Source: a virus (taxonomy: Duplodnaviria; Heunggongvirae; Uroviricota; Caudoviricetes). From it: a stretch of DNA of 10,386 nt. Each line of letters begins with the position of its first letter. Positions within the stretch are counted from its first letter, which is position 1. This document shows positions 1 through 10,386 of the stretch, in pieces. Both the position numbers and the translations under genes were made by a program. The notes under the pieces were generated by a model that saw only the letters and a program-made list of their open reading frames with translations, did no database searches and was not told where the DNA came from. The stretch is taken from positions 1 to 10,386 of the IMG/VR virus record IMGVR_UViG_2529292735_000026. One strand, given 5' to 3'.

Positions 1-369
1 ATGAATGGAATGGTGGAGAAGAATGGCACGCTGTCGAAAAAATCCAGACTGGGCGAAGCGTTCAGCTATGTACTGAATCAGTGGGACGCCCTCTGTTATT
101 ACAGTGATGACGGTCTGGCGGAGGTGGACAATAACACAGCGGAAAGAGCGCTTCGTGCAGTCTGTCTCGGAAAGAAAAATTACGTGTTCTTCGGTAGCGA
201 TCACGGCGGCGAGCGTGGAGCACTGCTGTACGGGCTGATCGGCACCTGCCGACTGAACGGTATCGATCCGGAAGCGTATCTGCGCCATATTCTGAGCGTA
301 CTGCCGGAATGGCCCTCCAACCGTGTTGACGAACTCCTGCCATGGAACGTAGTACTCACCAATAAATAA
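1..369 (+). CDS. IS66-family transposase, C-terminal fragment (5' end lies outside the window)
   Basis: Translation (…KNYVFFGSDHGGERGALLYGLIGTCRLNGIDPEAYLRHILSVLPEWPSNRVDELLPW…) resembles the conserved C-terminal region of IS66-family TnpC transposases as I recall them; ORF runs to the window edge; stop TAA at 367-369. Confidence 0.8.
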   Translation: MNGMVEKNGTLSKKSRLGEAFSYVLNQWDALCYYSDDGLAEVDNNTAERALRAVCLGKKNYVFFGSDHGGERGALLYGLIGTCRLNGIDPEAYLRHILSVLPEWPSNRVDELLPWNVVLTNK

Positions 370-399
370 GCGTCAATACGGTGCTCCGTTGACGCTTAC
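1..399 (+). mobile_element. IS66-family insertion sequence, right end (partial) with terminal inverted repeat at about 370-399
   Basis: Immediately after the transposase stop, 370-399 (gcgtcaatacggtgctccgttgacgcttac) reads in reverse complement as GTAAGCGTCAACGG…, the GTAA-initiated terminus typical of IS66-family IRs; sequence beyond 399 resumes in-frame phage tail-fibre-assembly coding sequence. Confidence 0.7.
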
Positions 400-762
400 G
401 ATAATATCATCCGCTATGTGGAAAAGGATGTGACAGCTATCAGACCGGATGGATTAAGTGTTGTTGAAGTGGCGGATATTACTGCTAACCGACGGGCGGA
501 CATTTCAGGGAACTGGATGTTTAAGGATGGCACAGTGATCAAACGAATTTATACGGCAGAGGAATTGCAACTGCAGGCAGAAAACCGGAAAGCCAGACTT
601 CTTGCAGATGCTGAATCCGTGATTTTGCCGCTAGAGCGTGCTGTCAGGCTGAACATGGCAACAGAGGAGGAGCGCACACGGCTGGAGGCTTGGGAACGCT
701 ACAGCGTTGTGGTCAGTCGTGTGGATCCTGCAAATCCTGAATGGCCGGAAATGCCGCAATAA
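400..762 (+). pseudogene. Tail fibre assembly protein (P2 G-like), 3' remnant truncated by the IS66 insertion
   Basis: Frame is open from the IS junction with no ATG or RBS (only a GTG at 418); translation ends …[34 protein letters not shown], the conserved C-terminal region of phage Tfa proteins (P2 G, lambda Tfa, Mu U); about 120 codons where an intact G-like protein is about 175 aa. Confidence 0.7.
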
Positions 763-948
763 GTTGTATGAACTCTGGTGTGAGCTTACATATCTATGGC
801 ACAGAGTAAAGCCTAATCTGACAGTCCGCTCTGTGCCAGGAGCGGAAGTTGCCAAGAGAACTCTTGCAAAGGTATGATAACGTAGGTGCTAAATAATCAT
901 GAACCATAATAAATTAAAGGTTTTTAAGTTAACTCTATGGCGTTTCTT

Positions 949-978
949 TTGCATGATGATTTTTATTTATTATATAAA
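949..978 (+). promoter_or_regulatory. Putative sigma70-type promoter for the 447-aa cargo ORF (TTGCAT, 18-nt spacer, TATAAA)
   Basis: TTGCAT at 949-954 and TATAAA at 973-978 inside a very AT-rich stretch, about 65 nt upstream of ATG 1043; pattern match only. Confidence 0.35.
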
Positions 979-1042
979 GCTTAAATATACATAATATTTA
1001 GCTTCATTTTTTTAGGTATTTTAAAGATTTAGAGGAATGTGA

Positions 1043-2386
1043 ATGGCTACTTATGCTTCTTATTTACCAGAATCACAAATTATCACTTTGTGCAAGGATT
1101 TCCCAGCGTTTACTGATCCTGAAAAATTAGATGGATTCATTAATCCAGAACAGTTTGGCGTGTTTTTTCATGAGTGGATTCATTTTCTTCACAATATTTC
1201 CACAATTAATGGGTTTTCTATTTTTTGCACGCAAAACATCCTGTGGTCTAATTTTCGCTGGGCAATGGACAATCAGGATGTATGTCTTGGTTCAAATGAC
1301 ATGGATCCAGCACATATCGAATCAAACAAAAATTTTCTCAGTTACATTCGTTCCAATAGGAGTCTGCATAAATGTAACTTACCTTATTATGTAAAAGTAA
1401 ACGACTTGTATTTTGAGGATGCAATAATCCATGACATGGAGGTTGCTGACGGTAGTGTTATATGTACATCATTAATAAAGTGTAGAATTTCTCATTCTGA
1501 AAACAAATACGATCTAGATTTAGGCGTGCTTGAAATACTTGAATCCGCAGCTTTTATGCTTGAATGTAAGTGTATTAATGCGATGAATGGCTTCCCTCAA
1601 GAGGCACCCTTTTATCCGTATCATACTATCAAGGGCTTAGCAGCGAAAATTGCTCCGTCATTAAATGATGAAGATATTATTTGTTGTATGTTAGCTTCTT
1701 TGCAATCTAATAACCCTCCCCAAGTATTATTCAATCTACTACATAAATGTGAATTATTACATTCTGATTGTAGGTATGAACATCTAGTGGCGGAGGTGAA
1801 AAAACAATTAAGCGAACAAGATCAAATAATAAGCGAGTCACTTAATCAAATAATTCAAATGATTCCTGTTGATGAACCGATGGGAAACTTTATCAAGCTT
1901 ACTCTTAACAGAATAAGTAACAATTTGAACTATAGAAAGCAAAAACCGTTTTTTGAGTTAGATATAATAAAAAAAATAGCAGAAAAAACTGAGTTTATGA
2001 ATGAAGTAATACAGAAATTCGGTGGTTGCACTATCATCCAGGTAAGACATGGAGATGATAATGAACCACAGCGTGATATTATGTATGACTTTTGCTTACC
2101 TGAAAATAATGATTCAATTTTATTTGGTTCGAAAATGCTACGCGCTTGTTTTCACTTTATATTTATTCACTTTAAACTTTCTGGTGAAATCATGAAGACA
2201 GAAGAATTAAATATTTCGCCGCGTAATAAATGCCCATTTTATACTGTTTGCTGTGCATCAATTCGAGCTAATAATAGTAATATCTGCGCTGAATCCCCTT
2301 GGAAATCAATGTCTATTGATGACAACAAAGGTTGTTATTATGCAGCAGCGATTAAAGCTACTAACCCACCAGTTTTGCCGGATTAA
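1043..2386 (+). CDS. Hypothetical protein, 447 aa; AT-rich cargo gene in the G-FI (Z/fun-equivalent) slot; HExxH motif near the N-terminus, cysteine-rich; candidate phage-exclusion or defence protein
   Basis: Long uninterrupted ORF; RBS AGAGGAA at 1029-1035 about 7 nt before the ATG; sampled 60-nt stretches are about 23-37% G+C against about 60% in the adjacent sheath gene; followed by a hairpin and an intrinsic terminator; no competing ORF on either strand between 860 and 2640. Confidence 0.85.
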   Translation: MATYASYLPESQIITLCKDFPAFTDPEKLDGFINPEQFGVFFHEWIHFLHNISTINGFSIFCTQNILWSNFRWAMDNQDVCLGSNDMDPAHIESNKNFLSYIRSNRSLHKCNLPYYVKVNDLYFEDAIIHDMEVADGSVICTSLIKCRISHSENKYDLDLGVLEILESAAFMLECKCINAMNGFPQEAPFYPYHTIKGLAAKIAPSLNDEDIICCMLASLQSNNPPQVLFNLLHKCELLHSDCRYEHLVAEVKKQLSEQDQIISESLNQIIQMIPVDEPMGNFIKLTLNRISNNLNYRKQKPFFELDIIKKIAEKTEFMNEVIQKFGGCTIIQVRHGDDNEPQRDIMYDFCLPENNDSILFGSKMLRACFHFIFIHFKLSGEIMKTEELNISPRNKCPFYTVCCASIRANNSNICAESPWKSMSIDDNKGCYYAAAIKATNPPVLPD

Positions 2387-2520
2387 GAATAGTGTTCTAT
2401 CTGATAAATATAAAATATTTAAGGTCAGGTCTGCTTATCGCTCAAAGCAGACTGTCAGATTTGATAACGTTTGGGCTATGTAAACCGTCAGTTGGAAAAT
2501 GAGTGAGTGCAAGTCAGGAC

Positions 2521-2548
2521 AGGCGGGCGGATTGCCCGCCTTTTCTTT
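2521..2548 (+). terminator. Rho-independent terminator downstream of the cargo ORF
   Basis: Perfect 8-bp GC-rich stem aggcgggc (2521-2528) / gcccgcct (2534-2541), 5-nt loop, followed by TTTCTTT. Confidence 0.6.
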
Positions 2549-2549
2549 A

Positions 2550-2640
2550 TCTGTTGTTTCATCCACTGACCAGCCAGGTCAAATAGCGCCTCATGCTCTG
2601 CACAACAGAAAATAGTTGCACCCATTAACCACGGAGTTAA
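2550..2640 (+). promoter_or_regulatory. Putative Ogr-dependent late promoter (P_F equivalent) upstream of FI
   Basis: Positional analogy to P2 P_F. A TGT-N12-cCA element (2555-2572) is a one-mismatch match to the TGT-N12-ACA dyad I recall for P2 late promoters, centred about 80 nt upstream of the FI ATG; no convincing -10 hexamer identified. Confidence 0.3.
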
Positions 2641-2644
2641 ACGG

Positions 2645-3835
2645 ATGAGTGACTATCATCACGGCGTGCAGGTGCTGGAGATTAACGACGGCACACGCGT
2701 CATTTCCACCGTATCCACTGCCATTGTCGGCATGGTCTGCACGGCCAGCGATGCGGATGCGGAAACCTTCCCCCTCAATAAACCTGTGCTGATTACCAAT
2801 GTGCAGAGTGCAATTGCAAAGGCCGGTAAAAAAGGCACGCTGGCGGCATCGTTGCAGGCCATCGCTGACCAGTCAAAACCGGTCACCGTTGTCGTGCGCG
2901 TGGAAGACGGCACCGGTGATGACGAGGAAACGAAACTCGCGCAGACCGTTTCTAATATTATCGGCACCACTGACGAAAACGGTCAGTACACCGGACTGAA
3001 AGCCCTGCTGGCGGCGGAGTCGGTAACCGGTGTTAAACCGCGTATTCTTGGTGTGCCGGGGCTGGATACCAAAGAGGTGGCTGTTGCACTGGCATCAGTC
3101 TGTCAGAAGCTGCGCGCTTTCGGATATATCAGCGCATGGGGCTGTAAGACCATTTCCGAGGTGAAAGCCTACCGCCAGAATTTCAGCCAGCGTGAGCTGA
3201 TGGTCATCTGGCCGGATTTCCTCGCATGGGATACGGTCACCAGTACCACCGCCACCGCGCATGCCACCGCCCGTGCGCTGGGTCTGCGCGCTAAAATCGA
3301 CCAGGAGCAGGGCTGGCATAAAACGCTGTCCAACGTTGGGGTAAACGGTGTTACCGGCATCAGCGCATCTGTATTCTGGGATTTGCAGGAGTCCGGCACC
3401 GATGCTGACCTGCTTAACGAGTCAGGCGTCACTACGCTGATTCGCCGTGACGGTTTCCGCTTCTGGGGTAACCGTACCTGCTCTGATGACCCGCTGTTCC
3501 TCTTTGAAAACTACACCCGCACCGCGCAGGTGCTGGCCGACACGATGGCTGAGGCGCACATGTGGGCGGTGGACAAGCCCATCACCGCAACGCTGATTCG
3601 CGACATCGTTGACGGCATCAATGCCAAATTCCGTGAGCTGAAAACAAACGGCTATATCGTGGATGCGACCTGCTGGTTCAGCGAAGAATCCAACGATGCG
3701 GAAACCCTCAAGGCCGGAAAACTGTATATCGACTACGACTATACCCCGGTGCCTCCTCTCGAAAACCTGACCCTGCGCCAGCGTATTACTGATAAATACC
3801 TGGCAAGTCTGGTCACCTCGGTTAACAGCAATTAA
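2645..3835 (+). CDS. FI: Contractile tail sheath protein (P2 gpFI-like), 396 aa
   Basis: N-terminus MSDYHHGVQVLEINDGTRVI… and length match P2 FI as I recall it; high G+C; syntenic with the following tail genes. Confidence 0.93.
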   Translation: MSDYHHGVQVLEINDGTRVISTVSTAIVGMVCTASDADAETFPLNKPVLITNVQSAIAKAGKKGTLAASLQAIADQSKPVTVVVRVEDGTGDDEETKLAQTVSNIIGTTDENGQYTGLKALLAAESVTGVKPRILGVPGLDTKEVAVALASVCQKLRAFGYISAWGCKTISEVKAYRQNFSQRELMVIWPDFLAWDTVTSTTATAHATARALGLRAKIDQEQGWHKTLSNVGVNGVTGISASVFWDLQESGTDADLLNESGVTTLIRRDGFRFWGNRTCSDDPLFLFENYTRTAQVLADTMAEAHMWAVDKPITATLIRDIVDGINAKFRELKTNGYIVDATCWFSEESNDAETLKAGKLYIDYDYTPVPPLENLTLRQRITDKYLASLVTSVNSN

Positions 3836-3847
3836 GGAGCCTGACCG

Positions 3848-4366
3848 ATGGCAATGCCGCGCAAACTCAAGTTAATGAACGTCTTTCTGAACGGCTACAA
3901 CTATCAGGGCGTCGCGAAGTCCGTCACGCTGCCAAAACTGACCCGTAAGCTCGAAAACTATCGCGGTGCGGGGATGAACGGCAGCGCACCGGTAGACCTC
4001 GGCCTTGATGACGATGCGCTGTCAATGGAGTGGTCGCTCGGTGGCTTCCCGGATTCGGTTATCTGGGAGCTTTACGCCGCAACCGGTGTGGATGCCGTAC
4101 CGATTCGTTTTGCAGGCTCTTACCAGCGCGACGATACCGGCGAAACGGTGGCCGTCGAGGTGGTCATGCGTGGACGTCAGAAAGAAATCGACACCGGCGA
4201 GGGCAAACAGGGAGAAGACACCGAGTCGAAAATCTCCGTGGTCTGCACCTATTTCCGGCTGACGATGGACGGTAAGGAGCTGGTCGAAATCGACACCATC
4301 AACATGATTGAGAAGGTGAACGGCGTCGACCGGCTGGAGCAACACCGCCGCAATATCGGCCTGTGA
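3848..4366 (+). CDS. FII: Tail tube protein (P2 gpFII-like), 172 aa
   Basis: Sits immediately downstream of the sheath gene with RBS AAGGAG; size and position match P2 FII. Confidence 0.92.
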   Translation: MAMPRKLKLMNVFLNGYNYQGVAKSVTLPKLTRKLENYRGAGMNGSAPVDLGLDDDALSMEWSLGGFPDSVIWELYAATGVDAVPIRFAGSYQRDDTGETVAVEVVMRGRQKEIDTGEGKQGEDTESKISVVCTYFRLTMDGKELVEIDTINMIEKVNGVDRLEQHRRNIGL

Positions 4367-4422
4367 TTTTCATCCGGTCAGCCTGGCTGACCGGTTAACC
4401 CCGATTCAGAAGTGAGAAAACC

Positions 4423-4698
4423 ATGAACAAAGAAAACGTCATTACCCTGGACAATCCGGTCAAACGTGGTGAGCAGGTTATCGAACAGGTCACGCTGATG
4501 AAACCCAATGCCGGGACGCTACGCGGTGTCAGTCTGGCTGCAGTCGCGAACTCCGAAGTCGATGCACTGATTAAAGTGCTGCCGCGCATGACGGCACCGA
4601 TGCTGACCGAGCAGGAAGTCGCCGCGCTGGAACTGCCTGACCTTGTGGCGCTGGCCGGTAAGGTGGTCGGTTTTTTGTCGCCGAACTCGGTGCAGTGA
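4423..4698 (+). CDS. E: Tail assembly chaperone gpE (P2 E-like), 91 aa
   Basis: Short ORF between the tube and tape-measure genes, the conserved position of tail chaperone genes; contains the slippery heptamer T_TTT_TTG at 4671-4677 near its 3' end. Confidence 0.9.
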   Translation: MNKENVITLDNPVKRGEQVIEQVTLMKPNAGTLRGVSLAAVANSEVDALIKVLPRMTAPMLTEQEVAALELPDLVALAGKVVGFLSPNSVQ

Positions 4699-4850
4699 CG
4701 TTTCCGAAAAATCTCTCGGTCGATGACCTGATGGCGGATGTGGCAGTGATATTTCACTGGCCGCCATCAGAACTGTATCCCATGAGCCTGACCGAACTCA
4801 TCACATGGCGCGAAAAGGCGCTCCGGCGAAGCGGAAACACGAATGAGTAA
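4423..4850 (+). CDS. E': gpE+E' fusion made by programmed -1 ribosomal frameshift at 4671-4677 (about 142 aa)
   Basis: The -1 frame is open from the slippery site T_TTT_TTG to a TAA at 4848-4850, overlapping the T start codon at 4843; mirrors the E/E' arrangement described for P2 and the G/GT chaperone of lambda. Confidence 0.75.
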
Positions 4851-7290
4851 CAATGTAAAATTACAGGTATTGCTCAGGGCTGTTGACCAGGCATCCCGCC
4901 CGTTTAAATCCATCCGCACAGCGAGCAAGTCGCTGTCGGGGGATATCCGGGAAACACAAAAATCACTGCGCGAGCTGAACGGTCACGCATCCCGTATTGA
5001 GGGATTTCGCAAGACCAGTGCGCAGCTCGCCGTGACTGGTCATGCACTTGAAAAGGCACGGCAGGAAGCCGAAGCCCTTGCCACACAGTTTAAAAACACC
5101 GAACGTCCGACCCGTGCTCAGGCGAAAGTGCTGGAATCCGCAAAGCGAGCGGCGGAGGACTTACAGGCGAAATATAACCGCCTGACGGATTCCGTTAAAC
5201 GCCAGCAGCGGGAACTGGCCGCTGTGGGAATTAATACCCGCAATCTTGCACATGATGAGCAGGGACTGAAAAACCGTATCAGTGAAACCACCGCACAGCT
5301 TAACCGGCAGCGTGACGCGCTGGCGCGTGTCAGTGCGCAACAGGCAAAACTTAACGCAGTAAAACAGCGCTATCAGGCAGGAAAGGAGCTGGCCGGAAAT
5401 ATGGCCTCAGTGGGCGCTGCCGGTGTGGGGATTGCGGCGGCGGGAACGATGGCCGGTGTTAAGCTGCTGATGCCCGGTTATGAATTTGCGCAGAAAAACT
5501 CAGAATTACAGGCCGTGCTCGGTGTGGCAAAAGACTCCGCCGAAATGGCCGCGCTACGCAAGCAGGCGCGCCAGCTCGGCGACAATACCGCCGCCTCGGC
5601 GGATGATGCGGCCGGTGCACAGATAATCATCGCGAAAGCGGGTGGGGATGTTGATGCCATTCAGGCGGCAACGCCGGTCACGCTGAATATGGCGCTGGCG
5701 AACCGTCGCACGATGGAAGAAAACGCCGCCCTGCTGATGGGGATGAAATCTGCCTTTCAGCTTTCAAACGATAAGGTTGCTCATATCGGGGATGTTCTCT
5801 CCATGACGATGAACAAAACCGCCGCCGATTTTGACGGTATGAGCGATGCGCTGACCTATGCCGCACCTGTGGCAAAAAATGCCGGTGTCAGCATTGAAGA
5901 AACCGCCGCAATGGTCGGGGCGCTGCATGATGCAAAAATCACAGGCTCAATGGCGGGGACGGGAAGCCGTGCCGTGTTAAGCCGCCTGCAGGCACCGACG
6001 GGAAAAGCATGGGATGCACTCAAAGAGCTTGGCGTGAAAACCTCAGACAGCAAGGGAAACACCCGGCCAATATTTACCATTCTGAAAGAAATGCAGGCCA
6101 GTTTTGAGAAAAACCGGCTCGGTACTGCCCAGCAGGCTGAATACATGAAAACTATTTTCGGGGAGGAGGCCAGCTCAGCCGCCGCCGTGCTGATGACCGC
6201 CGCCTCAACCGGAAAGCTGGACAAACTGACCGCTGCGTTTAAAGCCTCAAACGGGAAGACTGCCGAGCTGGTAAATATCATGCAGGACAACCTCGGCGGT
6301 GACTTTAAGGAGTTTCAGTCCGCTTATGAGGCGGTGGGGACAGACCTGTTTGACCAGCAGGAAGGCGCACTGCGCAAGCTCACACAGACGGCCACAAAGT
6401 ATGTGTTAAAACTCGACGGCTGGATCCAGAAAAACAAATCACTGGCGTCAACCATTGGCATCATTGCCGGTGGCGCGCTGGCGCTTATTGGCATCATCGG
6501 TGCAATTGGTCTTGTAGCCTGGCCGGTTATCACTGGCATCAATGCTATCATCGCGGCAGCAGGCGCAATGGGGGCAATCTTCACGACGGTTGGCAGTGCT
6601 GTTATGACGGCCATCGGGGCGATTAGCTGGCCGGTTGTGGCCGTGGTGGCCGCCATTGTCGCCGGGGCGTTGCTTATCCGTAAATACTGGGAGCCTGTCA
6701 GCGCATTCTTTGGCGGTGTGGTGGAAGGGCTGAAAGCGGCATTTGCGCCGGTGGGGGAACTGTTCACGCCACTTAAGCCGCTGTTTGACTGGCTGGGTGA
6801 AAAGTTACAGGCCGCGTGGCAGTGGTTTAAAAACCTGATTGCCCCGGTTAAAGCCACCCAGGACACCCTGAACCGTTGCCGTGACACGGGCGTCATGTTC
6901 GGGCAGGCACTGGCTGACGCGCTGATGCTGCCGCTTAATGCGTTCAACAAACTGCGCGGCGGTATTGACTGGGTACTGGAAAAACTCGGCGTCATCAACA
7001 AAGAGTCAGGCACGCTTGACCAGACTGCCGCCAGAACTCATGCCGCCACGTATGGCACCGGTGGTTATATTCCGGCGACCAGCTCTTATGCTGGCTATCA
7101 GGCTTATCAGCCAGTTACGGCACCGGCTGGCCGCTCTTATGTGGACCAGAGTAAAAACGAATATCACATCAACCTGACGGGCGGTACTGCGCAGGGGACA
7201 CAGCTCGACCGCCAGTTACAGGATGCGCTCGAAAAATACGAGCGGGATAAACGTGCGCGCGCCCGTGCCAGCATGATGCATGACGGTTAA
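4843..7290 (+). CDS. T: Tail tape measure protein (P2 gpT-like), 815 aa
   Basis: Long ORF with a coiled-coil-like N-terminal part, a Gly/Ala-rich hydrophobic segment (…IGIIAGGALALIGIIGAIGLVAWPVITGINAIIAAAGAMGAIF…) and position after E/E'. Confidence 0.93.
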   Translation: MSNNVKLQVLLRAVDQASRPFKSIRTASKSLSGDIRETQKSLRELNGHASRIEGFRKTSAQLAVTGHALEKARQEAEALATQFKNTERPTRAQAKVLESAKRAAEDLQAKYNRLTDSVKRQQRELAAVGINTRNLAHDEQGLKNRISETTAQLNRQRDALARVSAQQAKLNAVKQRYQAGKELAGNMASVGAAGVGIAAAGTMAGVKLLMPGYEFAQKNSELQAVLGVAKDSAEMAALRKQARQLGDNTAASADDAAGAQIIIAKAGGDVDAIQAATPVTLNMALANRRTMEENAALLMGMKSAFQLSNDKVAHIGDVLSMTMNKTAADFDGMSDALTYAAPVAKNAGVSIEETAAMVGALHDAKITGSMAGTGSRAVLSRLQAPTGKAWDALKELGVKTSDSKGNTRPIFTILKEMQASFEKNRLGTAQQAEYMKTIFGEEASSAAAVLMTAASTGKLDKLTAAFKASNGKTAELVNIMQDNLGGDFKEFQSAYEAVGTDLFDQQEGALRKLTQTATKYVLKLDGWIQKNKSLASTIGIIAGGALALIGIIGAIGLVAWPVITGINAIIAAAGAMGAIFTTVGSAVMTAIGAISWPVVAVVAAIVAGALLIRKYWEPVSAFFGGVVEGLKAAFAPVGELFTPLKPLFDWLGEKLQAAWQWFKNLIAPVKATQDTLNRCRDTGVMFGQALADALMLPLNAFNKLRGGIDWVLEKLGVINKESGTLDQTAARTHAATYGTGGYIPATSSYAGYQAYQPVTAPAGRSYVDQSKNEYHINLTGGTAQGTQLDRQLQDALEKYERDKRARARASMMHDG

Positions 7291-7304
7291 GGAGGTGACG
7301 AAAA

Positions 7305-7784
7305 ATGATGCTCGCGTTAGGTATGTTTGTTTTTATGCGCCAGACGCTGCCACACCAGACCATGCAGCGTGAATCAGATTATCGCTGGCCGTCAAATTCC
7401 TGTATCGGTAAACGGGATGCCTTTCAGTTTCTCGGTGTGGGTGAGGAAAACATCACGCTTGCCGGTGTGCTTTATCCTGAACTGACCGGCGGGAAGCTGA
7501 CGATGACCACGCTCAGGCTGATGGCAGAGGAAGGCCGGGCGTGGCCGTTGCTGGATGGCACCGGCATGATTTACGGCATGTATGTCATCAGCAGGGTGAG
7601 TGAAACAGGGAGTATTTTCTTTGCAGACGGCACACCCCGGAAAATTGATTTTACGCTGTCGCTCACCCGCGTTGATGAATCACTGGCCGCGCTTTATGGC
7701 GATATCGGTAAACAGGCGGAATCGCTCATCGGTAAGGCTGGCAGTATGGCGACTAAATTCACGGGTATGACGGGGGCGGGATAA
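7305..7784 (+). CDS. U: Tail protein gpU (P2 U-like), 159 aa
   Basis: RBS AAGGAGG upstream; syntenic position between T and D; stop overlaps the D start (ATAATG). Confidence 0.9.
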   Translation: MMLALGMFVFMRQTLPHQTMQRESDYRWPSNSCIGKRDAFQFLGVGEENITLAGVLYPELTGGKLTMTTLRLMAEEGRAWPLLDGTGMIYGMYVISRVSETGSIFFADGTPRKIDFTLSLTRVDESLAALYGDIGKQAESLIGKAGSMATKFTGMTGAG

Positions 7785-8947
7785 TGCTGGATGCACTGAC
7801 ATTTGATGCAGGCAGTACGCTGACGCCGGATTACATGCTGATGCTCGACAGCAGGGATATTACCGGCAATATCAGCGACCGTCTGATGAGTATGACCCTG
7901 ACGGATAACCGGGGTTTTGAGGCTGACCAGCTTGATATTGAACTGAACGATGCCGACGGGCAGGTCGGGCTGCCGGTTCGTGGCGCTGTCCTGACGGTGT
8001 ATATCGGCTGGAAAGGTTTTGCCCTGGTATGCAAAGGGAAATTCACCGTTGATGAGGTTGAACACCGGGGCGCGCCGGATGTGGTCACCATCCGCGCCCG
8101 GAGTGCAGATTTCCGCGGGACGCTCAATTCCCGCCGTGAAGGTTCCTGGCATGACACCACGCTCGGTGCGATTGTTGAGGCGATAGCCTCCCGTAACAGG
8201 CTGGAAGCCAGTGTCGCTCCGTCACTGGCCGGAATTAAAATCCCGCACATCGACCAGTCGCAGGAGTCTGATGCGAAATTCCTGACCCGTCTTGCAGAAC
8301 GCAACGGCGGTGAGGTGTCGGTAAAAATGGGAAAATTGTTGTTTCTCAAAGCGGGGCAGGGGGTGACGGCCAGCGGTAAGAAAATCCCGCAGGTCACCAT
8401 CACCCGCAGCGACGGCGACCGTCATCATTTTGCGATTGCTGACCGTGGAGCCTACACCGGCGTAACGGCAAAGTGGTTACACACCAAAGACCCGAAGCCG
8501 CAAAAGCAGAAGGTAAAACTGAAACGCAAAAAGAAAGAAAAACACCTGCGCGCACTGGAGCACCCGAAAGCGAAACCGGTCAGGCAGAAGATAGCGCCCA
8601 AAGTGCCGGAAGCGCGCGAAGGTGAATACATGGCCGGTGAGGCTGATAACGTTTTTGCCCTGACCACGGTATATGCCACGAAAGCACAGGCCATGCGCGC
8701 CGCTCAGGCGAAGTGGGACAAACTGCAACGGGGCGTTGCGGAGTTCTCCATCAGCCTTGCCACTGGTCGGGCTGATATTTACACGGAAACGCCGGTCAGA
8801 GTGTCAGGCTTTAAGCGCGTCATAGACGAGCAGGACTGGACAATCACTAAGGTGACACATTTTCTGAATAATAGCGGCTTCACGACGTCCTTGGAGCTTG
8901 AGGTCAGGCTTTCTGATGTGGAGTACGAAACAGAAGATGATGAGTGA
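7784..8947 (+). CDS. D: Tail protein gpD (P2 D-like), 387 aa
   Basis: Translationally coupled to U; size and position match P2 D; contains a Lys-rich segment (…KPQKQKVKLKRKKKEKH…). Confidence 0.9.
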   Translation: MLDALTFDAGSTLTPDYMLMLDSRDITGNISDRLMSMTLTDNRGFEADQLDIELNDADGQVGLPVRGAVLTVYIGWKGFALVCKGKFTVDEVEHRGAPDVVTIRARSADFRGTLNSRREGSWHDTTLGAIVEAIASRNRLEASVAPSLAGIKIPHIDQSQESDAKFLTRLAERNGGEVSVKMGKLLFLKAGQGVTASGKKIPQVTITRSDGDRHHFAIADRGAYTGVTAKWLHTKDPKPQKQKVKLKRKKKEKHLRALEHPKAKPVRQKIAPKVPEAREGEYMAGEADNVFALTTVYATKAQAMRAAQAKWDKLQRGVAEFSISLATGRADIYTETPVRVSGFKRVIDEQDWTITKVTHFLNNSGFTTSLELEVRLSDVEYETEDDE

Positions 8948-9028
8948 TGTTTTTATTTTATCTATTTGTTTTATAAGGATAAATTAACTAGAATGGCACT
9001 ATCAACAAAACCGGAAGAGGTGCTCGCG

Positions 9029-9247
9029 ATGTTTCATTGTCCTTTATGCCAGCATGCCGCACATGCGCGTACAAGCCGCTATATCACTGACACGACAAAA
9101 GAGCGTTATCACCAGTGTCAGAACGTGAATTGCAGCGCCACGTTCATCACCTATGAGTCGGTACAGAGATACATCGTGAAGCCGGGAGAAGTCCACGCCG
9201 TAAGGCCGCACCCGTTGCCGTCAGGGCAGCAAATTATGTGGATGTGA
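9029..9247 (+). CDS. ogr: Late transcription activator Ogr (zinc-finger), 72 aa
   Basis: Translation MFHCPLCQHAAHARTSRYITDTTKERYHQCQNVNCSATFITYESVQRYIVKPGEVHAVRPHPLPSGQQIMWM matches P2 Ogr as I recall it, with the C-x2-C…C-x4-C zinc finger; ATG 9029 chosen over the upstream TTG (8966) and ATG (8993) because of the GAGG RBS spacing and the canonical 72-aa length. Confidence 0.9.
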   Translation: MFHCPLCQHAAHARTSRYITDTTKERYHQCQNVNCSATFITYESVQRYIVKPGEVHAVRPHPLPSGQQIMWM

Positions 9248-9251
9248 TCAC

Positions 9252-9285
9252 AAAAATAGCCCCTCAGTTGAGGGGCTTTATTTAT
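9252..9285 (+). terminator. Rho-independent terminator after ogr (end of the late/tail transcription unit)
   Basis: 9-bp stem agcccctca (9258-9266) / tgaggggct (9269-9277) with a 2-nt loop, flanked by an A-run upstream and TTATTTAT downstream. Confidence 0.6.
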
Positions 9286-9291
9286 GGTCGA

Positions 9292-9320
9292 TGTGGACGC
9301 TATGTGGACAGCGGTTGACA
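9292..9320 (+). other. Putative integrase arm-type binding sites in attR (direct repeats TGTGGAC-G, TGTGGACA, GTTGACA)
   Basis: Three direct repeats at 9292, 9303 and 9314 with roughly one helical turn spacing; TGTGGACA is, to my recollection, the arm-site consensus of P2 integrase; located between ogr and host DNA where the attR arm is expected. Confidence 0.5.
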
Positions 9321-9375
9321 TAAATCCATTTATATCATCAGGTTAGGTGCTTTTTTGTGACACCATCCCTGTCTT

Positions 9376-9403
9376 CCCCCACATGATGTGGGGGTTTTTT
9401 TTA
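9376..9403 (+). terminator. Strong rho-independent terminator; probably host-derived (possibly the 3' end of the cpxP/CpxQ transcript) or part of the att core region
   Basis: GC-rich stem cccccaca / tgtggggg around a short loop, followed by a T8 run (9395-9402). Confidence 0.65.
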
Positions 9404-9429
9404 TCCTCAATTTGCCTGCTGCTTAATGC

Positions 9430-9456
9430 ATTGCAGATGATTTGCTTCCGTTATAC
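9430..9456 (+). promoter_or_regulatory. Possible fieF promoter (TTGCAG, 15-nt spacer, TATACT)
   Basis: Hexamer match only; spacer is short; about 30 nt upstream of the fieF ATG. Confidence 0.25.
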
Positions 9457-9483
9457 TAGCGTCAGTTGATAGCGGGAGTATTT

Positions 9484-10386
9484 ATGAATCAATCTTATGG
9501 ACGGCTGGTCAGTCGGGCGGCGATTGCTGCGACGGCGATGGCTTCGTTGCTATTGCTGATTAAAATTTTTGCATGGTGGTATACCGGGTCGGTGAGTATT
9601 CTCGCCGCGCTGGTGGATTCGCTGGTGGATATCGGCGCGTCGTTGACGAATTTACTGGTGGTGCGATATTCCCTGCAACCTGCCGACGATAATCACTCGT
9701 TTGGTCACGGTAAAGCAGAGTCCCTCGCGGCGCTGGCGCAAAGTATGTTTATCTCCGGTTCGGCACTATTCCTGTTTTTGACGGGTATTCAACATCTGAT
9801 ATCTCCAACACCGATGACAGATCCAGGCGTCGGGGTTATCGTGACAATTGTGGCGCTAATTTGTACGATTATCCTTGTCTCGTTTCAGCGTTGGGTGGTG
9901 CGCCGGACGCAAAGCCAGGCGGTGCGGGCTGATATGCTACATTACCAGTCTGATGTTATGATGAACGGCGCAATTCTGCTGGCGCTGGGGTTGTCCTGGT
10001 ACGGCTGGCATCGCGCCGATGCTCTGTTTGCATTGGGAATCGGCATCTATATTTTATATAGCGCGTTACGCATGGGATATGAGGCGGTACAGTCATTACT
10101 GGATCGCGCATTGCCTGATGAGGAACGGCAAGAAATTATTGATATCGTGACTTCCTGGCCGGGTGTTAGCGGCGCTCACGATCTTCGCACGCGGCAGTCA
10201 GGGCCGACCCGCTTTATTCAGATTCATTTGGAAATGGAAGACTCTCTGCCTTTGGTTCAGGCACATATGGTGGCGGATCAGGTAGAGCAGGCTATTTTAC
10301 GGCGTTTTCCGGGATCGGATGTGATTATCCATCAGGACCCCTGTTCCGTCGTACCCAGGGAGGGTAAACGGTCTATGCTTTCATAA
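9484..10386 (+). CDS. fieF: Cation diffusion facilitator family ferrous-iron/zinc efflux transporter FieF (YiiP), 300 aa
   Basis: Translation [49 protein letters not shown]… matches E. coli FieF/YiiP as I recall it; RBS GGGAG 5-6 nt upstream of ATG 9484; multiple TM helices followed by a cytoplasmic C-terminal domain; stop TAA at window end. Confidence 0.93.

What the first reader, a model, noticed from the sequence alone, without database searches (positions are those of the whole stretch)
1043..2386. Unassigned 447-aa cargo gene in the tail-fibre/sheath (Z/fun-equivalent) slot of a P2-like prophage: candidate single-gene phage-exclusion or defence determinant
Seen in sequence: one long ORF sits between the tail-fibre-assembly remnant and FI; it has its own RBS, an upstream promoter-like sequence and a downstream intrinsic terminator, and nothing else codes on either strand between about 860 and 2640. 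Established knowledge: in P2 this position holds the non-essential moron Z/fun (reported to confer T5 exclusion), and the G-FI slot of P2-like prophages is a known hotspot for diverse anti-phage cargo. Inference: this ORF is such a cargo gene, expressed from the lysogen. I cannot recognise the family; it might be P2 Fun(Z) itself or a replacement of it.
Basis: partly seen in the sequence, partly recalled or inferred. Interest (0 to 1): 0.85.

Follow-up and report, generated by a model that had tools for sequence, protein, structure and literature searches.

The report
Orphan metalloprotease-like defence candidate cassette
A single gene for an uncharacterised protein with a new predicted fold and an invariant zinc-protease-like motif sits as swapped-in cargo in the known defence hotspot among the tail genes of a P2-like E. 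coli prophage; its relatives elsewhere lie next to known anti-phage systems, so it is a good but untested candidate for a new anti-phage gene.

Summary
ORF 1043-2386 (447 aa, identical to WP_000257039.1 'hypothetical protein') is the only gene in a 1.57-kb low-GC insert (about 850-2420; GC 0.33 against 0.55) between the truncated tail-fibre-assembly gene G and sheath gene FI. It is not P2 Fun(Z): there is no similarity and no Walker A motif. It replaces Fun(Z) in a slot that held six different contents in six sampled prophages.

The protein matches nothing in Pfam, NCBIfam, PADLOC or the PDB. It does belong to a large unannotated family (1028 representatives at 50% identity, nearly all 440-500 aa). 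A confident AlphaFold model (pLDDT 92) has no significant fold match. Invariant residues are H43-E44-x-x-H47, E167, Y193, R298 and four cysteines.

Relatives have no conserved partner gene. In 11 of 22 contexts they lie within 10 kb of known or candidate defence genes (retron-type, ApeA, Gabija-type, CBASS, Lamassu, pPIWI-RE, PARIS-like, type I R-M).

My best reading is a stand-alone anti-phage determinant, probably a metal-dependent peptidase. Neither the function nor the chemistry has been tested.

Side finding: the cargo is bracketed by two conserved hairpin motifs. These delimit single-gene cassettes, in arrays joined by 18-nt linkers, in P2-like phages, ICEs, islands and plasmids.

The parts
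1..399 (+). End of an IS66-family element (transposase C-terminus 1-369) that truncates gene G; context only
   Evidence: homology to the intact prophage of APEC O2-211 begins at window 400
418..762 (+). 3' remnant of tail fibre assembly gene G (left backbone flank)
824..847 (+). Type A boundary hairpin GTCCGCT-CTGTGCCAGG-AGCGGAA (left edge of the cargo cassette)
   Evidence: 1 mismatch; 0.01 expected by chance; DNA fold -7.3 kcal/mol, z -2.4
849..878 (+). Promoter-like TTGCCA-18-TATGAT. The -35 lies in a palindrome (CAAGAG..CTCTTG) that changes on both arms in the Sodalis orthologue (TTGCCAAA..TTTGGCAA)
   Evidence: function not shown
1032..1036 (+). Shine-Dalgarno GAGGA, 6 nt before the ATG
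1043..2386 (+). Cargo ORF: 447 aa, 51 kDa, pI 5.3, no transmembrane segment; member of an unannotated family
1169..1183 (+). Codons of H43-E44-W-I-H47 (HExxH) in the middle of predicted helix 35-53
1541..1543 (+). Codon of invariant E167 on predicted helix 162-180; candidate third metal ligand
   Evidence: spatial proximity to the HExxH histidines not verified
2231..2335 (+). C-terminal Cys4 region: C397-x5-C403-x11-C415-x15-C431, all invariant, with R408 and P419-W420
2429..2452 (+). Type B boundary hairpin GTCTGCT-TATCGCTCAA-AGCAGAC (right edge of the cassette)
   Evidence: 2 mismatches; 0.00 expected by chance; z -4.3
2521..2550 (+). Intrinsic-terminator-like hairpin plus T-run; P2 backbone, also present in P2 upstream of pF
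2645..3835 (+). FI tail sheath gene (right backbone flank)

Best explanation
The ORF is a horizontally exchanged single-gene cassette in the G|FI (Z/fun) hotspot of a P2-like prophage, where it replaces Fun(Z). It encodes a soluble cytoplasmic protein of about 51 kDa. The protein is the E. coli representative of a large uncharacterised family with a new predicted fold.

The protein most likely works alone as an anti-phage (exclusion or abortive-infection) determinant for the lysogen. Its chemistry is most likely metal-dependent hydrolysis. An HExxH helix (H43, E44, H47) together with invariant E167 would bind Zn and activate water, as in gluzincin peptidases. Invariant Y193, R298 and H376 would be auxiliary residues. 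An invariant C-terminal Cys4 site would hold a second metal or an Fe-S cluster, for structure or for sensing. By analogy with Lit of prophage e14, infection would trigger cleavage of a host or phage protein.

Shown: cargo status, family conservation, the invariant residues, the absence of a partner gene, and the defence-rich neighbourhoods. Inferred: the defence function (about 0.65), peptidase chemistry (about 0.45), and the abortive-infection mode and target (about 0.3). The single confidence figure given is for 'stand-alone defence determinant acting as a metal-dependent hydrolase'.
For: Cargo status:
- GC 0.33 against 0.55.
- Boundaries at about 850 and 2420.
- Full insert in only 13 of 5426 complete E. 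coli genomes, in prophages at two or more attachment sites.
- Slot contents differ in 6 of 6 sampled prophages: RES, DUF6602, restriction endonuclease, Fun(Z)-type ATPase, DUF3800 and others.
- The hotspot is published, with validated systems.

Family:
- 36 clusters in the word-indexed search.
- 1028 representatives at E<=1e-3, full length and single domain.
- Invariant over 142-163 diverse members: H43, E44, E167, Y193, R298, C397, C403, C415, C431. At 97-99%: H47, N51, T54, H376, P419, W420.
- The HExxH lies mid-helix in a pLDDT-92 model.
- No transmembrane segment.

Stand-alone:
- The family member is the only protein shared among 9 genome loci.

Defence association within 10 kb:
- Retron-type RT with AAA_15, and MC2 with AAA_23.
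- ApeA in an ICE.
- Prok-E2 with JAB, and pPIWI_RE.
- AAA_21 with DUF4435, and type I R-M.
- Gabija-type pair, RES and HsdR.
- CBASS III and JetD.
- LmuB_C and HEPN_Toprim.
- PDC-S71, and a PDC-M54A/Avs-like protein.
- Other cassettes of the same A/B format carry PD-T7-1, PDC-S39 and TIR proteins.
Against: - No experiment supports a defence function.
- No homology to any characterised defence protein or peptidase: Pfam, NCBIfam and PADLOC empty for the query and for 89 relatives; Lit hhalign probability 0.2%.
- 6 of the 22 contexts are uninformative, including lone insertions among housekeeping genes.
- Hotspot and cassette cargo is not exclusively defence: HAD-like and GGDEF/EAL-like proteins occur in other cassettes, judged from sequence.
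- The promoter is not statistically supported.
Confidence: 0.45

Rival explanations
1. It is a defence protein, but its chemistry targets nucleic acid. The Cys4 site would be a [4Fe-4S] cluster of the kind found in DNA-processing enzymes, and the H/E/H/E residues would bind a catalytic metal of a nuclease or glycosylase that attacks phage DNA or host tRNA/rRNA.
Confidence: 0.15
2. It is a counter-defence or inter-element competition factor: a protease or other enzyme that the prophage, ICE or plasmid uses to inactivate host or rival defence or replication proteins, rather than to protect the host from phages.
For: It is always on or beside mobile elements: P2-like prophage, ICE T4SS cargo, Tn7-like element, CP4-57-like island carrying Antirestriction and RadC genes. 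Anti-defence genes also occur in P2 accessory loci (bioRxiv 10.64898/2026.02.27.708500).
Against: Neighbours are overwhelmingly defence genes, not leading-region anti-defence clusters. It also occurs as a lone chromosomal insertion. No tblastn match in 50,697 deposited phage genomes. In P2 the slot is a lysogenic-conversion slot.
Confidence: 0.12
3. It is lysogenic-conversion cargo unrelated to phages, for example a stress, metal-homeostasis or virulence factor carried by avian and diarrhoeagenic E. coli prophages.
Against: No signal peptide or transmembrane segment. The family is spread through environmental Proteobacteria and reaches Bacteroidota. Its association is with defence genes, not virulence loci.
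Confidence: 0.07
4. It is a decaying or non-functional ORF retained by chance in a defective prophage.
For: The prophage is damaged: an IS66-type insertion truncates G.
Against: The reading frame is intact and identical across strains. There are 1028 family representatives with strictly invariant residues. The AlphaFold model is confident.
Confidence: 0.01

Closest known systems
P2 Fun(Z) (Z/fun; Sll1717-family P-loop ATPase, T5 exclusion)
   Same: Same genomic slot between G and FI. Non-essential single-gene cargo. Bracketed by the same A and B hairpins in P2.
   Different: No sequence similarity (best E 1.9). 528 aa with Walker A GEKGTGKT, against 447 aa with none. Opposite strand.
Lit (prophage e14, peptidase family U49): HExxH protease that cleaves EF-Tu when triggered by the T4 Gol peptide
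   Same: Prophage-borne, stand-alone, cytoplasmic HExxH protein. It is the model for the proposed abortive-infection mechanism (the Lit mechanism is from established knowledge).
   Different: No detectable homology (hhalign probability 0.2%; no Pfam hit). 297 aa against 447 aa. Lit has no Cys4 region.
Gluzincin metallopeptidases (HExxH plus a downstream Glu; e.g. M32 carboxypeptidases, thermolysin, clostridial neurotoxins with auxiliary Arg/Tyr)
   Same: HExxH in the middle of a helix. Invariant Glu on a later helix. Invariant Tyr and Arg that could stabilise the transition state.
Validated defence genes of the P2 fun hotspot (three systems in Vassallo 2022) and PD-T7-1/PD-T7-5-like cassette cargo
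   Same: Same hotspot. PD-T7-1/PD-T7-5-like, PDC-S39 and TIR proteins occupy the same A...B cassette format in other viral contigs.
   Different: The proteins are unrelated: PADLOC is empty for the query.
Integron gene cassettes and attC sites (for the boundary hairpins only)
   Same: Arrays of mostly single-gene units separated by a short, structured imperfect palindrome. The B-18-A junction folds at -18.1 kcal/mol, z -4.5.
   Different: The motif sequence is unlike the attC sequence as I recall it. No integron integrase was seen in the annotated examples. Cargo lies in either orientation, and at least this cassette seems to carry its own promoter. Hosts are phage tail-gene slots, ICEs, islands and plasmids.

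Membership tests
P2 Fun(Z) / Sll1717-family P-loop ATPase | Sequence homology to Fun(Z) | tested here: not met
   BLASTP best E 1.9 over 10 residues
P2 Fun(Z) / Sll1717-family P-loop ATPase | Walker A P-loop | tested here: not met
   No [AG]xxxxGK[ST] in the ORF; Fun(Z) has GEKGTGKT at residue 49
Zincin / gluzincin metallopeptidases | HExxH on an alpha-helix, conserved across the family | tested here: met
   H43 and E44 invariant, H47 99%, in the middle of helix 35-53
Zincin / gluzincin metallopeptidases | Third zinc ligand (Glu) on a downstream helix, positioned next to the two His | tested here: inconclusive
   E167 is invariant on helix 162-180.
Zincin / gluzincin metallopeptidases | Zincin fold (mixed sheet, active-site helix and Glu helix) recognisable by structure comparison | tested here: inconclusive
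Zincin / gluzincin metallopeptidases | Peptidase activity and bound Zn | not testable with these tools
   Needs biochemistry
Lit peptidase (U49) | Homology to Lit / Pfam Peptidase_U49 | tested here: not met
   No Pfam hit at E<=1; hhalign of the family profile against Lit gives probability 0.2%
Known or candidate defence families in PADLOC-DB v2.0.0 | HMM match | tested here: not met
   0 hits for the query. Among 89 relatives, one marginal hit at E 0.009.
P2-like prophage hotspot cargo (moron) at Z/fun | Lies between conserved G and FI; contents vary among related prophages; atypical composition | tested here: met
Defence-island gene (guilt by association) | Homologues recurrently adjacent to known defence systems in unrelated genomes | tested here: met
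   11 of 22 contexts. No formal background statistic was computed.
Anti-phage defence system | Protects against phage when expressed | not testable with these tools
   Needs plaque and infection assays
Integron cassette | attC site and an IntI integrase | tested here: not met
   The boundary motifs are GTCCGCT-stem hairpins, unlike the attC sequence as I recall it. No integron integrase appears in the annotated examples.

The most novel reading that the evidence does not exclude
The ORF founds a new, widespread class (at least 1000 clusters at 50% identity) of one-protein anti-phage immune effectors with a previously unseen fold. The class would combine a gluzincin-like metal site with a Cys4 or Fe-S module. 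In addition, the A and B hairpins that bracket it would be the recombination sites of an unrecognised, integron-like cassette-exchange system. That system would move single defence genes among P2-like phages, ICEs, genomic islands and conjugative plasmids of Enterobacterales.
Probability: 0.25. Interest if true: 0.85.

Novelty: new variant of a known kind. Interest (0 to 1): 0.62.

Why it matters
Defence function. If it is confirmed, this would add a family with no known relatives, no Pfam domain and no structural neighbour to the anti-phage repertoire. The predicted active site (HExxH/E plus Cys4) is directly testable by point mutation. Protease-based single-gene defences are rare; Lit is the classical example. 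A new one would give a handle on how proteolysis is coupled to sensing of infection.

Cassette motifs. The boundary motifs may matter more broadly. Recent surveys stress that defence genes in P2 and P4 hotspots are swapped extremely fast, and that they reappear in other elements and in 'cryptic islands', without naming a mechanism (bioRxiv 10.64898/2026.02.27.708500). A conserved, unannotated 66-nt junction is present in about one in six complete E. coli genomes and on hundreds of enterobacterial plasmids. It is a concrete candidate for that mechanism and a practical flag for finding new cargo genes.

Tried and rejected
Tried without result:
- Pfam, NCBIfam and PADLOC on the query, and Pfam and PADLOC on 89 diverse relatives: nothing. 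The only hits were stray ones (Peptidase_M85 at E 0.0097 in one member; DUF2934 in two members).
- PHROGs returns only unknown-function families.
- PDB by sequence and by profile: nothing.
- tblastn against 50,697 phage genomes: no match.
- The afdb50 library was unavailable.
- A second word-indexed homologue search with a profile added only one new protein.
- Rfam: nothing in the window.
- Literature searches for the accession, locus tag and PHROG id: nothing.
- Nilsson et al. 2004 (Mol Biol Evol 21:1) and Odegrip et al. 2006 could not be read.

Rejected:
- Identity with Fun(Z).
- Relationship to Lit.
- A conserved small upstream partner ORF. The short ORFs upstream in distant loci share no similarity.
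- The downstream terminator as part of the cargo. It is backbone.
- A 446-aa plasmid cassette protein as a family member. It is unrelated.

Full report
**1. What is in the window**

The window is the tail module of a P2-like prophage integrated next to fieF. Positions 400-10386 are 99.9% identical to E. coli APEC O2-211. The gene order is:

- an IS66-type end (1-399) that removes the first 165 nt of tail-fibre-assembly gene G;
- the G remnant (418-762);
- the ORF in question (1043-2386);
- FI (2645-3835), FII, E/E', T, U, D and ogr;
- fieF.

**2. The observation**

The ORF is 447 aa, starts at an ATG, and has a GAGGA Shine-Dalgarno 6 nt upstream. Its product is identical to WP_000257039.1, annotated 'hypothetical protein'.

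No other ORF of 50 aa or more lies on the minus strand between 860 and 2640. No Rfam family matches.

ORF GC is 0.34 (GC3 0.28), against 0.56 (0.67) for FI. Homology with other P2-like prophages ends at about 838-852 and resumes at about 2417-2434. The foreign insert is therefore about 1.57 kb and holds one gene.

The terminator-like hairpin at 2521-2541 is real, but it is part of the conserved backbone and also occurs in P2 upstream of pF.

The promoter-like site at 849-878 (TTGCCA-18-TATGAT) is not statistically distinguishable from chance in this AT-rich stretch. It is nevertheless conserved, with the roughly 240 nt upstream of the start codon, in orthologous loci of Sodalis, Serratia and metagenomic islands. 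That conservation suggests the promoter travels with the gene.

**3. The slot**

In P2 the same interval holds fun(Z), on the opposite strand. Six P2-like prophages sampled from the E. coli collection carry six different contents there:

- a RES-domain protein;
- DUF6602 plus a hypothetical gene;
- a hypothetical gene plus a restriction endonuclease;
- the Fun(Z)-type Sll1717 ATPase;
- DUF3606/DUF8453;
- a hypothetical gene plus DUF3800.

The literature already treats this slot as a defence-enriched hotspot. Vassallo et al. 2022 found three of their validated systems there. Egorov et al. 2024 describe it as a mixed-purpose hotspot. Moura de Sousa et al. 2026 place a share of P2 defence systems within the late genes.

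The full insert described here is rare: 13 of 5426 complete E. coli genomes, in prophages at two or more attachment sites.

**4. What the protein is not**

- It is not Fun(Z). The best BLASTP E-value is 1.9. It has no Walker A motif, whereas Fun(Z) has GEKGTGKT.
- It matches no Pfam, NCBIfam or PADLOC model. It matches only PHROG families of unknown function.
- It has no match among PDB sequences, by phmmer or by family profile.
- It has no tblastn match in deposited phage genomes.
- Profile comparison with Lit, the classical prophage HExxH defence protease, gives probability 0.2%.

**5. What the protein is**

The word-indexed search found 36 clusters, all gammaproteobacterial and all unnamed. 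The exhaustive profile search found 1028 representatives at E<=1e-3 and 275 at E<=1e-30. Nearly all are 440-500 aa and match end to end. This is a sizeable single-domain-architecture family absent from the curated libraries: 89 diverse members scanned individually gave no Pfam or PADLOC assignment.

Over 142-163 members with mean column identity of about 18%, conservation is as follows:

- invariant: H43, E44, E167, Y193, R298, C397, C403, C415 and C431;
- 97-99% conserved: H47, N51, T54, H376, P419 and W420.

AlphaFold2 with the family alignment gives a confident single globule (pLDDT 92.3, pTM 0.92). The HExxH lies mid-helix (35-53). A five-stranded sheet spans 123-160. E167 sits on the next helix (162-180). 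A helical core and a C-terminal Cys-rich region follow.

The protein has no transmembrane segment; it is 51 kDa with pI 5.3.

Structure searches found nothing significant:

- Foldseek gives a best E-value of 1.5.

The fold is therefore new with respect to solved structures. The zincin question stays open.

**6. Context of relatives**

Across nine genome loci from Rheinheimera, Pseudomonas, Paraburkholderia, Cupriavidus, Rhodoferax, Azovibrio, a betaproteobacterial MAG and Odoribacter, the only protein shared between loci is the family member itself. There is no partner gene.

Of 22 independent contexts, 11 have known or candidate defence genes within 10 kb:

- the P2 hotspot itself;
- retron-type RT with AAA_15, and MC2 with AAA_23;
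- ApeA inside ICE T4SS cargo;
- Prok-E2 with JAB, and a pPIWI_RE module;
- a PARIS-like AAA_21-DUF4435 protein with type I R-M in a CP4-57-like island;
- a Gabija-type pair with RES and HsdR;
- type III CBASS and JetD;
- LmuB_C and HEPN_Toprim;
- PDC-S71, and a PDC-M54A/Avs-like giant ATPase.

Five more contexts are plainly mobile: TnsA/TnsB, an integrase, the end of a prophage or satellite, an ICE, and an Rhs/HNH island. Six are uninformative, including a clean insertion between trpA and ydjM in Aeromonas veronii.

I did not compute a background rate. Such a density of distinct defence systems around a gene with no fixed partner is the pattern used to nominate defence genes.

**7. Mechanism**

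The most economical reading is a stand-alone sensor-effector. H43 and H47 (one helical turn apart) plus E167 would bind Zn, and E44 would be the general base. This is the gluzincin arrangement, with Y193, R298 and H376 as candidate transition-state or substrate residues.

The four invariant cysteines (C-x5-C-x11-C-x15-C, with no CxxC pairs) would bind a second metal or a [4Fe-4S] cluster.

By analogy with Lit, infection would unleash proteolysis of a host or phage protein. This part is inference. What is shown is only the motif, its invariance and its helical setting. A nucleic-acid-directed Fe-S enzyme is the main mechanistic rival. A counter-defence role is the main functional rival.

**8. 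Cassette boundaries (side finding, partly followed)**

The insert is bracketed by two 24-nt hairpin motifs. They share a 7-bp stem (GTCCGCT/AGCGGAC) but have different loops:

- type A, GTCCGCT-nnGTGCCAnn-AGCGGAC, at 824-847;
- type B, GTCCGCT-nnTCGCTCAn-AGCGGAC, at 2429-2452. Here the stem is GTCTGCT/AGCAGAC, changed on both arms.

Chance expectation in the window is 0.01 for A and 0.00 for B. As single-stranded DNA the two hairpins fold with z -2.4 and -4.3.

The order A...cargo...B, with both motifs on the strand of the late operons, holds whatever the strand of the cargo gene. It recurs in P2 itself around fun(Z) and in prophages with unrelated cargo. Where there are two cargo genes, each has its own pair, joined B-18 nt-A.

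The same format surrounds the family member and its neighbours outside P2: in a Sodalis ICE, a Serratia fonticola island and a CP4-57-like island. In the CP4-57-like island three cassettes lie in a row, one of them the PARIS-like gene.

In 80 viral contigs retrieved with an exact type A pattern:

- there are 57 A->B intervals of 0.05-4 kb, all but one at least 0.5 kb;
- the B->A gap is 18 nt in 13 of 19 cases;
- the 57 intervals hold 39 unrelated protein families, on either strand;
- of 9 family representatives scanned, 3 match PADLOC families: PD-T7-1/PD-T7-5, PDC-S39 and TIR.

The 66-nt B-18-A junction:

- occurs in 898 of 5426 complete E. coli genomes, at 1-3 places each, and no annotated feature lay under any of the 25 listed matches;
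- occurs on 276 plasmids of Enterobacter, Klebsiella, Pantoea, Citrobacter and others, one example being A|AIPR|B;
- can also fold as one long imperfect hairpin (-18.1 kcal/mol, z -4.5).

Stems are mostly conserved in sequence, with few changes on both arms. Structure is therefore not independently proven.

These motifs could be recombination sites for cassette exchange, short homology anchors, or transcriptional insulators.

The title of Nilsson et al. [quoted passage not shown] I could not read that paper, so I do not claim novelty for the motifs. The recent hotspot papers I could read do not mention them.

**9. Verdict**

- The interpretation (unassigned single-gene cargo in the Z/fun slot, candidate defence determinant, not Fun(Z)) is supported as far as computation allows.
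- The gene is a new family within a known kind of system, namely prophage-hotspot defence cargo.
- Its chemistry is plausibly metalloproteolytic but unproven.

Noticed in passing
window 824-847 and 2429-2452; also L004, L018, L022-L027, L030, L032, L039-L118, L159, L160: Two conserved hairpin motifs with the same GTCCGCT/AGCGGAC stem and loops GTGCCA (type A) or TCGCTCA (type B) bracket the cargo. They delimit single-gene cassettes in arrays joined by an 18-nt linker, in P2-like phages, ICEs, islands and plasmids. The 66-nt junction is in 898 of 5426 E. coli genomes and 276 plasmids, with no annotated feature under any listed match. This may have been described already in Nilsson et al. 2004, which I could not read.
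   Followed up: partly
window 849-869 (compare L018 9811-9831): The -35 of the promoter-like site lies in a palindrome, CAAGAG-AA-CTCTTG. In the Sodalis orthologue's upstream region it is replaced by TTGCCAAA-ATAAC-TTTGGCAA. Both arms change together, as expected for an operator or a hairpin.
   Followed up: no
window 1-417: An IS66-family element end, with the transposase C-terminus to 369, has removed the first 165 nt of tail-fibre-assembly gene G. The prophage in this strain is therefore probably defective, while the cargo gene is intact.
   Followed up: partly
L001 5828-6613 and L002 5760-6545 (outside the window); L023 7001-7786: The same prophages carry a second reverse-strand 786-bp hypothetical gene between virion morphogenesis gene S and baseplate gene V. 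A gene of the same length forms its own A|B cassette in the G|FI slot of another prophage. I did not check whether they are related.
   Followed up: no
L014 11565-20877 and L159 8357-11437: In Enterobacter the stretch after the family gene runs from a type A motif to a type B motif 9 kb away. It holds metabolic genes (DMT transporter, amidohydrolase, LysR regulators). The same gene types sit beside an A|AIPR|B cassette on an Enterobacter hormaechei plasmid. Cassette sites may therefore also flank larger non-defence blocks.
   Followed up: no
window 2457-2483 versus 870-896: A weak 27-nt direct repeat (74% identity) lies just inside the left boundary of the insert and just beyond its right boundary, with TGATAACGT as its core. 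It may be a trace of the exchange event, or chance.
   Followed up: no
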